Position numbers and translations under genes: made by a program. Positions 21,673 to 21,875 of a stretch of DNA of 38,841 nucleotides are shown here, one piece after another; positions within the stretch are counted from its first letter, which is position 1, and the number at the start of each line of letters is the position of its first letter. The notes under the pieces are model-generated. The model worked only from the letters and a program-made list of their open reading frames with translations, was not told the DNA's origin and searched no databases. Source of the DNA: a virus (lineage: Duplodnaviria > Heunggongvirae > Uroviricota > Caudoviricetes); IMG/VR virus record IMGVR_UViG_2541047816_000002; one strand, written 5' to 3'.

Positions 21673-21705
21673 CCCGTTTGTTGGCACCAAGCGGGGTTTT
21701 GTGTT
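21673..21705 (+). terminator. Hairpin/terminator-like element between endolysin and Rz
   Basis: aaccccgtttg-ttggcac-caagcgggg stem followed by TTTTGTGTTT. Confidence 0.4.
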
Positions 21706-21774
21706 TCCTGACTCCGGAAAAGTCAAAGGAGAAAGTGTGTTTGATTTTAGCAAACTGATTCGGGAGATTCGAGT

Positions 21775-21873
21775 GATGGCTGAAAAATTATCCACCTGGA
21801 AGTTCATTCTTATCTGGCTGGTGTTTGTGATTATGGCCTCCGGTTATTTCATCGGTCAGATACGCTGGTGGTG
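21775..21873 (+). CDS. Small single-TM peptide (32 aa)
   Basis: ATG with [40 protein letters not shown]; stop 2 nt before Rz start. Confidence 0.35.
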
Positions 21874-21875
21874 AA

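What the first reader, a model, noticed from the sequence alone, without database searches (positions are those of the whole stretch)
21673..21875. Hairpin and 32-codon membrane-peptide ORF wedged between endolysin and Rz
After the endolysin stop there is a terminator-like hairpin (21673-21705), then a small ORF (21775-21873) with a GGGAG RBS encoding a single hydrophobic helix ([32 protein letters not shown]), ending 2 nt before the Rz start. It is too short for the ORF track but has gene-like signals. It may affect spanin expression or act as a small membrane effector.
Basis: seen in the sequence. Interest (0 to 1): 0.38.

Follow-up and report, generated by a model that had tools for sequence, protein, structure and literature searches.

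The report
Antisense-guarded small membrane-protein cassette
The hairpin and the tiny membrane-protein gene between the phage endolysin and Rz are one conserved, portable cassette that also appears to carry its own antisense-RNA gene; it occurs in many phages of enteric bacteria and Pseudomonas and has not been described.

Summary
The hairpin is at 21668-21700. The conserved ORF has 45 codons, from GTG 21737 to TGA 21874.

Hairpin, leader and ORF travel together as one cassette in Escherichia, Salmonella, Citrobacter, Edwardsiella, Yersinia, Pantoea, Serratia, Sodalis, Pseudomonas phages and an Azoarcus MAG.

- The ORF is under purifying selection: pN/pS 0.31, no indels.
- The hairpin covaries: 10 of 14 pairs show double changes.
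- A second hairpin hides the Shine-Dalgarno sequence.
- Synonymous sites of codons 3-6 and 10-12 are frozen. On the minus strand they read as an extended -10 promoter (TGnTAAAAT) plus a weak -35. This predicts an ~80-nt antisense RNA that covers the start codon and SD and ends at the same bidirectional hairpin.
- The cassette is not spanin-specific. It follows four Pfam families of endolysin and also sits between baseplate genes.
- It usually ends TGGTGGTGA, 1-3 nt before the next gene's ATG.

Best reading: a type-I-toxin-like, sar/ant-like late gene for a 45-aa inner-membrane protein, possibly with a 32-aa isoform. Its biochemical role is unknown. Databases call it hypothetical (phrog_6632), and I found no literature on it.

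The parts
21044..21577 (+). SAR-type endolysin R (context, upstream neighbour)
   Evidence: Pfam Phage_lysozyme E 1.3e-23; annotated as lysozyme in identical DNA.
21578..21657 (+). Spacer found only in lambdoid lysis-cassette copies of the cassette; function unknown
   Evidence: Homologous to the stretch upstream of the cassette in Salmonella phage SPN3UB. Absent from baseplate copies, where the hairpin follows the upstream stop codon within about 25 nt.
21658..21667 (-). A-rich tract (AATAAAAGTA), read as the U-rich tail of the hairpin acting as a terminator on the minus strand
   Evidence: The A-tract is conserved in all contexts, whatever lies upstream (alignment A5). The predicted antisense RNA ends here.
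21668..21700 (.). Bidirectional intrinsic-terminator-like hairpin (13-bp stem, 7-nt loop)
   Evidence: covariation.
21704..21732 (+). Leader hairpin that pairs the U-rich tail with the Shine-Dalgarno region (SD core GGAG 21728-21731)
   Evidence: MFE folds of 17 homologues. The SD core is predicted unpaired with P 0.16 in the window against 0.53 for shuffled leaders. The family mean is 0.27 against 0.42, Wilcoxon p 0.002. 85% of cells are paired, covariation 0.242 against 0.149+-0.015 (0/500).
21737..21874 (+). 45-codon ORF (GTG start, TGA stop): [46 protein letters not shown]-terminal amphipathic helix followed by a C-terminal TM helix
   Evidence: pN/pS 0.31, the lowest of six frames, with no indel in 14 sequences from 12 genera. 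phrog_6632. PGAP CDS. AF2 model: helices 4-17 and 20-43, pLDDT 80.9.
21744..21752 (-). Predicted extended -10 promoter element, 5'-TGCTAAAAT-3' on the minus strand (codons 3-6 of the ORF)
   Evidence: Present as TGnTAAnAT in 75 of 77 unique cassettes. Codon usage is frozen: GAT 49/49, TTT 33/33, AGC 51/51, AAA 50/51. The motif is kept where the amino acids differ.
21767..21772 (-). Predicted weak -35 (TCGAAT on the minus strand; codons 11-12), 17 nt from the -10
   Evidence: TTG 37/38 and CGA 51/51 are frozen although both amino acids have six codons.
21656..21738 (-). Predicted ~80-nt cis-antisense RNA (start about 21737, end in the U-run after the hairpin), complementary to the start codon, SD and leader
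   Evidence: Inferred from the promoter and terminator geometry. Fold: single-stranded 5' end containing the anti-SD CUUUCUCCUUU, a small hairpin, then the terminator. No Rfam family matches.
21762..21778 (+).
   Evidence: Arg9 is coded only by CGG or AGG and Glu10 only by GAG; ATG14 is present in 76 of 77 cassettes. Cassettes that have lost the upstream start keep this ORF.
21866..21878 (+). TGGTGGTGA-A-ATG junction: the last codons (W-W-stop) form an SD-like GGTGGTGA for Rz, whose ATG follows 1 nt after the stop
   Evidence: Single match in the window. The next start lies 1 nt after the stop in 116 and 3 nt after in 14 of the 171 sampled loci that have a downstream ORF (188 loci in all).
21876..22343 (+). 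Rz i-spanin with embedded Rz1 (22096-22281) (context, downstream neighbour)
   Evidence: Pfam Phage_lysis E 4.2e-51; phrog_13; ORF list.

Best explanation
A portable cassette of about 220 bp is inserted in a phage late operon. It encodes a 45-aa inner-membrane protein, inferred to be tail-anchored with the N-terminus inside. Four layers appear to keep the protein silent until late transcription. (1) A bidirectional intrinsic terminator immediately upstream stops ordinary rightward read-through. (2) A leader hairpin pairs the terminator's U-tail with the Shine-Dalgarno sequence. (3) The start codon is weak (GTG or TTG). (4) A sigma-70 extended -10 promoter built into codons 3-12 fires leftward. 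It would make an ~80-nt antisense RNA that covers the start codon, SD and leader and ends at the same hairpin. After induction, Q-modified polymerase from pR' reads through the terminator, and sense RNA swamps or occludes the antisense promoter. The peptide is then made from GTG, and perhaps as a 32-aa form from the invariant internal AUG, which has its own GGGAG and lies outside the antisense RNA. Ribosomes stopping at UGA restart at the Rz AUG 1 nt downstream, so the insertion is not polar on the next gene. Shown: the cassette's anatomy, coding selection, hairpin covariation, frozen synonymous sites that match a promoter, and mobility between contexts. Inferred: that the antisense RNA exists, when the protein is expressed, and the coupling to Rz. 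Speculative: what the peptide does. My preferred guess is a membrane-active helper or modulator of late-stage membrane events such as lysis timing, as shown for the prophage type I toxin HokW.
For: Coding: pN/pS is 0.31, the best of six frames, over 45 codons with no indels. There are 38 unique protein variants, and the family profile finds only proteins of about 45-50 aa. One unit: hairpin, a 36-40-nt leader and the ORF are present together in 12+ genera, in viable phages (SPN3UB, SEN34, Pseudomonas YMC11/02/R656) and in members only 35-45% identical. Hairpin 1 covaries. Hairpin 2 occludes the SD. Antisense promoter: codons 3-6 and 10-12 never change synonymously (Ser5 AGC 51/51, Arg12 CGA 51/51, Leu11 TTG 37/38), whereas codons 7-9 and 14-43 vary freely; mean synonymous difference is 0.168 against 0.429. 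pS is 0.315 for codons 2-13 against 0.75 for the rest. The frozen blocks are exactly a TGnTAAAAT extended -10 and a -35 at 17-nt spacing on the minus strand. The motif survives amino-acid replacement: NFIK gives TGATAAAAT, NSSK TGCTAGAAT, KYIK TGATATACT, HISR TGCTAATGT. It also survives in GC-rich Pseudomonas phage DNA, where the ORF still uses GAT TTT. The A-tract upstream of the hairpin is conserved whatever the upstream gene is. Mobility: upstream neighbours include four endolysin Pfam families, GpV-apex baseplate spike, LPD38, NlpC/P60+JAB and P22_AR_N; downstream neighbours include Rz PF03245, DUF2514 and baseplate wedge. K-12 Qin has R and Rz overlapping with no insert. Precedents: hokW-sokW assists Sp5 lysis (PMC8621323); the sar antisense RNA controls ant in the P22 late-operon moron (PMC2629481).
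Against: No transcript, protein or phenotype data were available, so the antisense RNA is a sequence prediction. Its -35 is weak (3 of 6). In the E. coli type, the hairpin's G-U pair becomes an A-C mismatch on the minus strand, and the consensus scan reported the terminator only on the + strand. AU-rich early codons could partly reflect translation-initiation constraints. No dedicated sense promoter was found, unlike classical type I toxin genes. In SEN34-type phages a strong terminator between essential baseplate genes would be harmful, so its + strand efficiency must be limited or overridden there. Toxicity and membrane insertion are untested.
Confidence: 0.5

Rival explanations
1. An ordinary moron-type small membrane-protein gene with a terminator in front and no antisense RNA. 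The frozen synonymous sites would then reflect requirements of the sense mRNA: weak structure and AU-rich early codons, the internal SD, and pairing with the leader.
For: The gene is clearly coding and mobile. The GGGAG before Met14 explains part of the freezing. AU-rich 5' codons are common (established knowledge). The -35 is weak.
Against: AGC (not AGT or TCT) at codon 5 and CGA at codon 12 are neither AU-rich nor part of the internal SD, yet both are 51/51. The TGnTAnnnT motif persists where the amino acids change. The geometry (-10, 17-nt spacer, -35, then a terminator with a conserved A-tract about 80 nt away) would be a coincidence.
Confidence: 0.2
2. A lysis-cassette accessory in the first reader's sense: an antiholin-like or spanin-directed regulator whose job is tied to Rz/Rz1 or to the pinholin/SAR-endolysin pathway. 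It might have two isoforms, like lambda S107/S105.
For: Most sampled copies lie between an endolysin and Rz, 1 nt before the Rz ATG. Dual-start features and an SD-occluding stem-loop resemble lambda's sdi/dual-start motif. Other non-homologous small TM ORFs occupy the same slot: Sp15 ECs_5741 and a 36-aa ORF in SPN3UB.
Against: The cassette also sits in baseplate and tail clusters of viable phages. It accompanies at least three holin families and four endolysin Pfam families, which argues against a specific protein partner in the cassette. Sampling was biased towards E. coli and Salmonella lambdoid prophages.
Confidence: 0.15
3. A lysogen-benefit moron, for example a superinfection-exclusion peptide like HK97 gp15, or an sRNA gene whose trans targets are host mRNAs. 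It would be expressed from the prophage rather than late.
For: Small single-pass membrane proteins encoded by morons in late operons can block DNA entry (HK97 gp15; from my own knowledge). The predicted antisense promoter would be active in lysogens, and its RNA carries an anti-SD-like 5' end.
Against: No sense promoter was found, and a terminator, an SD-occluding hairpin and a weak start all oppose expression of the peptide in lysogens. The ORF is under selection along its whole length, so the sRNA alone is not the cargo.
Confidence: 0.1
4. There is no translated gene. The conserved element is only RNA or DNA (terminator plus sRNA), and the ORF is incidental.
For: Many annotations omit it: 'none' is listed under the match in most phage records.
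Against: pN/pS is 0.29 over codons 14-45, far from the RNA elements. The length is constant, there are no stops, substitutions in the TM segment are conservative, and the motifs W21-K/R-F and [RK]WW are conserved in distant members.
Confidence: 0.05

Closest known systems
Type I toxin-antitoxin loci (hok/sok, ldr/rdl, symE/symR, zor/orz; prophage example hokW-sokW of Sp5)
   Same: A hydrophobic peptide under 60 aa. The mRNA leader hides the SD. A cis-encoded antisense RNA of about 60-80 nt covers the translation-initiation region, and its promoter lies inside the 5' end of the ORF, as in symR/symE. The location is a prophage. HokW shows that such a peptide can assist phage lysis (PMC8621323).
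   Different: No sequence similarity and no dedicated toxin promoter. The sense RNA must come from the surrounding late operon through an upstream terminator. The TM helix is C-terminal and preceded by a conserved amphipathic helix. The cassette is coupled to the next gene. Toxicity is untested.
P22 immI sar RNA / ant (antisense control inside a late-operon moron)
   Same: A short antisense RNA started just inside the regulated gene and complementary to its ribosome-binding site. It lies in a moron within the late operon, with possible effects on read-through into the next late gene (PMC2629481; details of sar are from my own knowledge).
   Different: The regulated product here is a 45-aa membrane peptide, not an antirepressor. 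There are no Mnt or Arc repressors. The cassette is much smaller and far more mobile.
Morons encoding small membrane proteins (HK97 gp15, lambda bor/lom)
   Same: Extra DNA lies between genes that are adjacent in relatives (Qin rrrQ/rzpQ overlap). It is co-oriented with the late operon, has a transcription signal attached and encodes a small membrane protein.
   Different: A classical moron has a promoter upstream and a terminator downstream and is expressed in the lysogen. Here the terminator is upstream, no sense promoter is seen, and the design suggests silence in the lysogen.
Holin/antiholin dual-start genes with an sdi stem-loop (lambda S107/S105, phage 21 S71/S68)
   Same: A small membrane protein in a lysis cassette, with two candidate starts each having its own SD. 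An RNA stem-loop occludes the upstream SD.
   Different: The starts are 13 codons apart rather than 2-3. There is one TMD. The gene co-exists with a bona fide S21-type pinholin at 20136-20351 and also occurs outside lysis cassettes.
phrog_6632 / WP_000459345.1 (database family of unknown function)
   Same: This ORF is a member (E 1.4e-29, full length; identical PGAP protein).
   Different: The family carries no function, no Pfam or NCBIfam model and, as far as I could search, no literature.

Membership tests
phrog_6632 (45-aa phage protein family, unknown function) | Full-length profile match | tested here: met
   E 1.4e-29, residues 13-57 of the 57-aa open frame against profile positions 1-45 of 45.
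Type I toxin-antitoxin system | Small (<60 aa) hydrophobic, membrane-targeted peptide | tested here: met
   45 aa; AF2 helix 20-43 over the hydrophobic stretch [20 protein letters not shown]. Membrane insertion itself was not tested.
Type I toxin-antitoxin system | Antisense RNA gene overlapping the toxin's translation-initiation region | tested here: inconclusive
   A conserved minus-strand extended -10 and -35 plus a bidirectional terminator predict it. There are no transcript data and no Rfam family.
Type I toxin-antitoxin system | Toxin mRNA made from its own promoter | tested here: not met
   No + strand promoter-like site lies between R and the ORF. The DNA left of the A-tract is not conserved between contexts.
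Type I toxin-antitoxin system | Growth arrest or killing on over-expression, relieved by the RNA | not testable with these tools
   Needs an experiment.
Moron (Juhala/Hendrix sense) | Extra DNA between genes that are adjacent in related phages | tested here: met
   Qin rrrQ/rzpQ overlap by 4 nt, whereas the window has 298 nt between R and Rz. The same cassette lies between baseplate V and W in SEN34.
Moron (Juhala/Hendrix sense) | Own promoter upstream and terminator downstream; expression from the prophage | tested here: not met
   The terminator is upstream, no sense promoter was found, and the next gene starts 1-3 nt after the stop.
Holin / antiholin | Membrane protein of the lysis cassette that is the phage's hole-former or its specific inhibitor | tested here: inconclusive
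   No Pfam holin family matches it, while an S21-type holin is present separately. It occurs with holin_2_1, holin_2_3 and holin_8 cassettes and outside lysis cassettes. Activity was not tested.
Intrinsic (rho-independent) terminator | GC-rich stem followed by a U-run, conserved as a structure | tested here: met
   Termination efficiency on either strand was not measured.

The most novel reading that the evidence does not exclude
This may be a previously unrecognised class of mobile late-operon cassette. It is a self-contained unit with five parts: a bidirectional terminator, an SD-occluding leader, a membrane peptide with two starts, a cis-antisense RNA whose promoter is written into the peptide's own codons, and a built-in SD/stop junction that hands ribosomes to whatever gene lies downstream. 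It can therefore insert between essential late genes of unrelated phages (lambdoid, P22-like, P2/SEN34-like, Pseudomonas siphophages) without polarity. The antisense RNA would selectively shut off the long isoform and so set the long:short ratio of a membrane-active peptide that tunes the end of infection.
Probability: 0.3. Interest if true: 0.75.

Novelty: new variant of a known kind. Interest (0 to 1): 0.55.

Why it matters
At least 80% of a 341-nt probe spanning the cassette (21560-21900) matches in 871 of 5,426 complete E. coli genomes, including H-19B and many Stx1a, Stx2a and Stx2c phages. It lies in the operon that controls lysis and therefore toxin and phage release. If the antisense RNA and the peptide are real regulators, they add an unrecognised control layer to the lysis cassette of Shiga-toxin phages. 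They would also give a compact natural example of a gene whose codons double as the promoter of its own antisense repressor. Finally, they would show how small genes can colonise essential operons without polarity. The cassette is small enough to test quickly with fusions, northern blots and synonymous mutations.

Tried and rejected
- Rfam at gathering and permissive thresholds on the window and six homologous loci found no family for the hairpin, leader or antisense RNA. There is only a recurrent sub-threshold rimP-leader hit on the minus strand.
- Pfam and NCBIfam have nothing for the peptide.
- Literature searches for the accession, for peptide fragments, for 'between R and Rz' and for lysis-cassette small proteins gave no description.
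- I checked whether the region matches the EHEC prophage sRNAs (AgvB/AsxR, Pas sRNAs). Those lie upstream of the holin or elsewhere, not here.
- The first minus-strand promoter candidate (21859->21830, CTGACC-18-CATAAT) was rejected because it is not conserved in homologues.
- A transposon or MITE origin is unlikely: there are no flanking inverted or direct repeats.
- I looked for the cassette in Sakai Sp15 in order to use published Ribo-seq. Sp15 carries Ant plus a different small ORF instead.
- A fold search on the AF2 model was not run, because a helix-kink-helix of 45 residues is uninformative.
- K-12 lacks the cassette at Qin, so K-12 small-protein and TSS atlases cannot help.

Full report
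**Setting.** The window is a lambdoid, H-19B/Stx-phage-like E. coli prophage. Around the finding, the + strand carries:
- an S21-type holin (20136-20351);
- a YdfR/DUF1327 gene (20356-20700);
- a SAR-type endolysin R (21044-21577);
- a 298-nt gap;
- Rz (21876-22343) with embedded Rz1 (22096-22281).

In K-12 Qin the homologous rrrQ and rzpQ overlap by 4 nt, so the gap is an insertion. A 341-nt probe spanning it is 100% identical in many ExPEC chromosomes and 94-96% identical in H-19B and many Stx1a, Stx2a and Stx2c phages. At least 80% of the probe is covered in 871 of 5,426 complete E. coli genomes.

**Checking the observation.** The hairpin is at 21668-21700: a 13-bp stem, a 7-nt loop, then TTTTGTGTTT. 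Its dG is -18.9 kcal/mol and z is -2.9. The frame is open from 21701. PGAP annotates, in identical DNA, a 45-aa hypothetical protein starting at GTG 21737 behind AAAGGAGAAA. This matches phrog_6632 (45 aa, unknown function) at E 1.4e-29.

**The ORF is a real gene.** Homologues of 45 aa occur in:
- Escherichia, Salmonella, Citrobacter, Trabulsiella, Edwardsiella, Yersinia, Izhakiella, Sodalis, Brenneria, Pantoea, Symbiopectobacterium, Serratia, Enterobacter, Klebsiella and Providencia;
- Pseudomonas aeruginosa prophages and an Azoarcus MAG;
- the isolated phages SPN3UB, FSL SP-016, SEN34 and YMC11/02/R656.

Fourteen sequences from 12 genera align without a single indel. Pooled pN/pS is 0.31 in the ORF frame against 0.51-1.86 in the other five frames. 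In 73 of 77 unique cassettes the start is GTG or TTG, never ATG; a few distant lineages do use ATG. A profile search of 1.84 billion representatives finds only 71 clusters, all of about 45-50 aa once over-extended calls are discounted. This is a small, stand-alone family with no Pfam or NCBIfam model. AlphaFold predicts helix 4-17, a kink, and helix 20-43 (pLDDT 80.9). I read this as an amphipathic cytoplasmic helix plus one TM helix, with a small-xxx-small motif (GYFIG or SSLIG) near its outer end and a terminal [RK]WW. The topology is inferred.

**Hairpin and ORF are one cassette.** In every lineage, the following parts occur together at fixed spacing:
- an A-rich tract;
- a GC-rich hairpin;
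- a U-rich tract;
- a 36-40-nt leader;
- the start codon.

The stems differ by compensatory changes: CCCCG/CGGGG, CTCCG/CGGAG, CCCGG/CCGGG, GCCCAG/CTGGGC and GCCTCATGTG/CACATAAGGC. On 30 diverse cassettes 91.4% of cells pair and 10 of 14 pairs show double changes. The covariation score is 0.332 against 0.135+-0.014 in shuffles (0/500) and at most 0.128 for slid partners. RNAalifold recovers the helix independently.

A second hairpin pairs the U-tail and a CCUUG-like segment with the SD: CAAGGGAGAA in most lineages, GACU/AGUC plus UUUCCU/AGGAGA in E. coli, and CGUUA/UAACG in others. The SD core is predicted mostly paired: window P(unpaired) is 0.16 against 0.53 with shuffled leaders, and the family mean is 0.27 against 0.42, p 0.002. 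Pair counts support this hairpin moderately: 85% paired, covariation 0.242 against 0.149+-0.015.

**A promoter written into the codons.**
- Frozen codons: across 51 unique coding sequences, D3 is GAT 49/49, F4 TTT 33/33, S5 AGC 51/51, K6 AAA 50/51, E10 GAG 50/50, L11 TTG 37/38 and R12 CGA 51/51. R9 is only CGG or AGG.
- Free codons: codons 7-9 and 14-43 vary freely. R43, for example, uses five codons. Mean synonymous difference is 0.168 against 0.429, and pS is 0.315 against 0.75.
- Promoter reading: on the minus strand the frozen blocks read 5'-TGCTAAAAT-3', an extended -10, and TCGAAT or TCGCAA, a weak -35, separated by 17 nt.
- Match to critical positions: the two synonymous positions that never change (codon 4 position 3 = T, codon 5 position 3 = C) are the A(-11) of the -10 and the G of the TG extension.
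- Persistence: the motif is present in 75 of 77 unique cassettes. It persists where the amino acids differ: Azoarcus NFIK gives TGATAAAAT, and distant members NSSK, KYIK and HISR give TGCTAGAAT, TGATATACT and TGCTAATGT. It also persists in GC-rich Pseudomonas phage DNA.

The predicted start is at the ORF's start codon (about 21737). About 80 nt further left lies the same hairpin, which on this strand is followed by UUUUUACUUUUAUU. The A-tract that encodes this tail is conserved whatever gene lies upstream. The predicted RNA has a single-stranded 5' end containing the anti-SD, a small hairpin and the terminator. No Rfam family covers it. I rate its existence at about 0.65-0.7. It rests on sequence alone.

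**A possible second isoform.** This motif is made from rare Arg codons plus GAG. Distant lineages keep AAGGAG, AAGGAA or GAGGTG there. Copies that have lost the upstream start (GCG, GTA or truncation) keep the Met14 ORF. The predicted antisense RNA and the leader hairpin would affect only the upstream start, so they could set the long:short ratio. This is speculation.

**Context.**
- Of 188 sampled loci, about 130 lie between an endolysin and Rz.
- The upstream neighbours fall into four endolysin Pfam families (Phage_lysozyme, GH19, GH108 and M15_4), plus a 138-aa neighbour that I could not classify.
- The downstream Rz is either PF03245 or DUF2514.
- About 25 loci lie between baseplate spike (GpV apex) and wedge genes, including the viable phage SEN34.
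- Others follow a tail fibre, an LPD38 protein, a lambda-K-like protein or an antirepressor, or sit in a Pseudomonas siphophage tail cluster or ahead of a terminase operon.
- The cassette is always co-oriented with the late genes.
- It ends TGG TGG TGA/TAG in nearly all enteric copies, and the next ATG follows 1 nt later in 116 loci and 3 nt later in 14.
- GGUGGUGA resembles an SD, so the cassette seems to supply translation signals for whatever lies downstream. This is inferred.
- No flanking repeats suggest transposition.

The sampling is biased towards E. coli and Salmonella prophages.

**Interpretation.** The cassette behaves like a moron, but one designed for silence. It has an upstream terminator, no sense promoter, a hidden SD, a weak start and a predicted antisense RNA. 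The nearest known logics are:
- type I toxin-antitoxin loci, in particular symE/symR-like geometry, and hokW-sokW as a prophage toxin that aids lysis (PMC8621323);
- P22 sar/ant inside a late-operon moron (PMC2629481).

It fails one type I criterion, because it lacks its own toxin promoter. It also fails the classical moron layout. I therefore describe it as working like these systems and do not file it as a member. A spanin-specific function is not supported, because the cassette also lives in baseplate operons.

**Limits.** The peptide's biochemical role is not determinable here. My preferred guess, at about 0.3, is a membrane-active helper or modulator of late membrane events. Rival explanations and the tests that would decide between them are listed separately.

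Noticed in passing
L189 24749-24895 (minus strand; E. coli O157:H7 Sakai prophage Sp15, ECs_5741): In Sp15 the R-Rz gap holds an antirepressor gene and then a different, non-homologous 48-aa hydrophobic ORF (MGWLMISDKLITLVKSLCVLVGISFLVMLVAIFFSTAWRVLTLSGLVG). This ORF ends 7 nt before Rz. The slot just upstream of Rz is therefore repeatedly occupied by small TM ORFs.
   Followed up: partly
L106 2235-2345 (Salmonella phage SPN3UB): An unannotated 36-aa hydrophobic ORF (MSKRDVSALCFLMAAAVAISGNDGWGWLIFAGIIIL) overlaps the lysozyme stop. It lies upstream of the spacer and cassette, so this lysis cassette has two small TM ORFs between R and Rz.
   Followed up: no
window 21578-21657: An 80-nt stretch between the R stop and the A-tract is shared with SPN3UB-type lysis cassettes, including GCCACGCGGGCGGATAACA. 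It is absent from baseplate copies of the cassette. It holds a 17-codon ORF (21606-21659) that is not kept in frame in SPN3UB. Its function is unknown.
   Followed up: partly
window 21658-21733 (-); L088 2422-2497 (-); L106 2356-2497 (-): Recurrent sub-threshold Rfam hits to the rimP leader (24.7-30.5 bits against a gathering score of 47) fall on the minus strand exactly over the predicted antisense RNA. They probably reflect the hairpin plus U-run, but they recur in three loci.
   Followed up: no
window 21457-21469 and 21859-21871: A 13-nt near-repeat (GATTCGCTGGTGG / GATACGCTGGTGG) encodes IRWW both inside the endolysin and at the C-terminus of the small ORF. It may be chance or a trace of an old recombination joint.
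   Followed up: no
window 20666-20938 (-): A 90-aa ORF on the opposite strand lies between the YdfR-like gene and the endolysin. It matches phrog_2411 (unknown function, E 1.1e-58) over its full length and is convergent with the lysis genes.
   Followed up: no
window 4988-5459, 11840-12015, 16906-17909: Rfam gathering-level hits elsewhere in the prophage: C4 antisense RNA, isrK and DicF (minus strand, 4988-5459); sok antitoxin RNA (11840-12015), which implies a hok/sok type I locus in the same prophage; three tRNAs (16906-17152); and two STnc100 copies (17232-17422, 17700-17909).
   Followed up: no
L167, L177, L097, L124 (IMG/VR and Serratia loci): Some cassette copies have lost the upstream start (GTG changed to GCG or GTA) or the first 6-13 codons, yet keep an intact ORF from Met14. 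This is consistent with a functional 32-aa core.
   Followed up: partly
window 22560-22900: An AT-rich stretch downstream of Rz contains a 52-aa hydrophobic ORF (22676-22834, TTG start). It was not examined.
   Followed up: no
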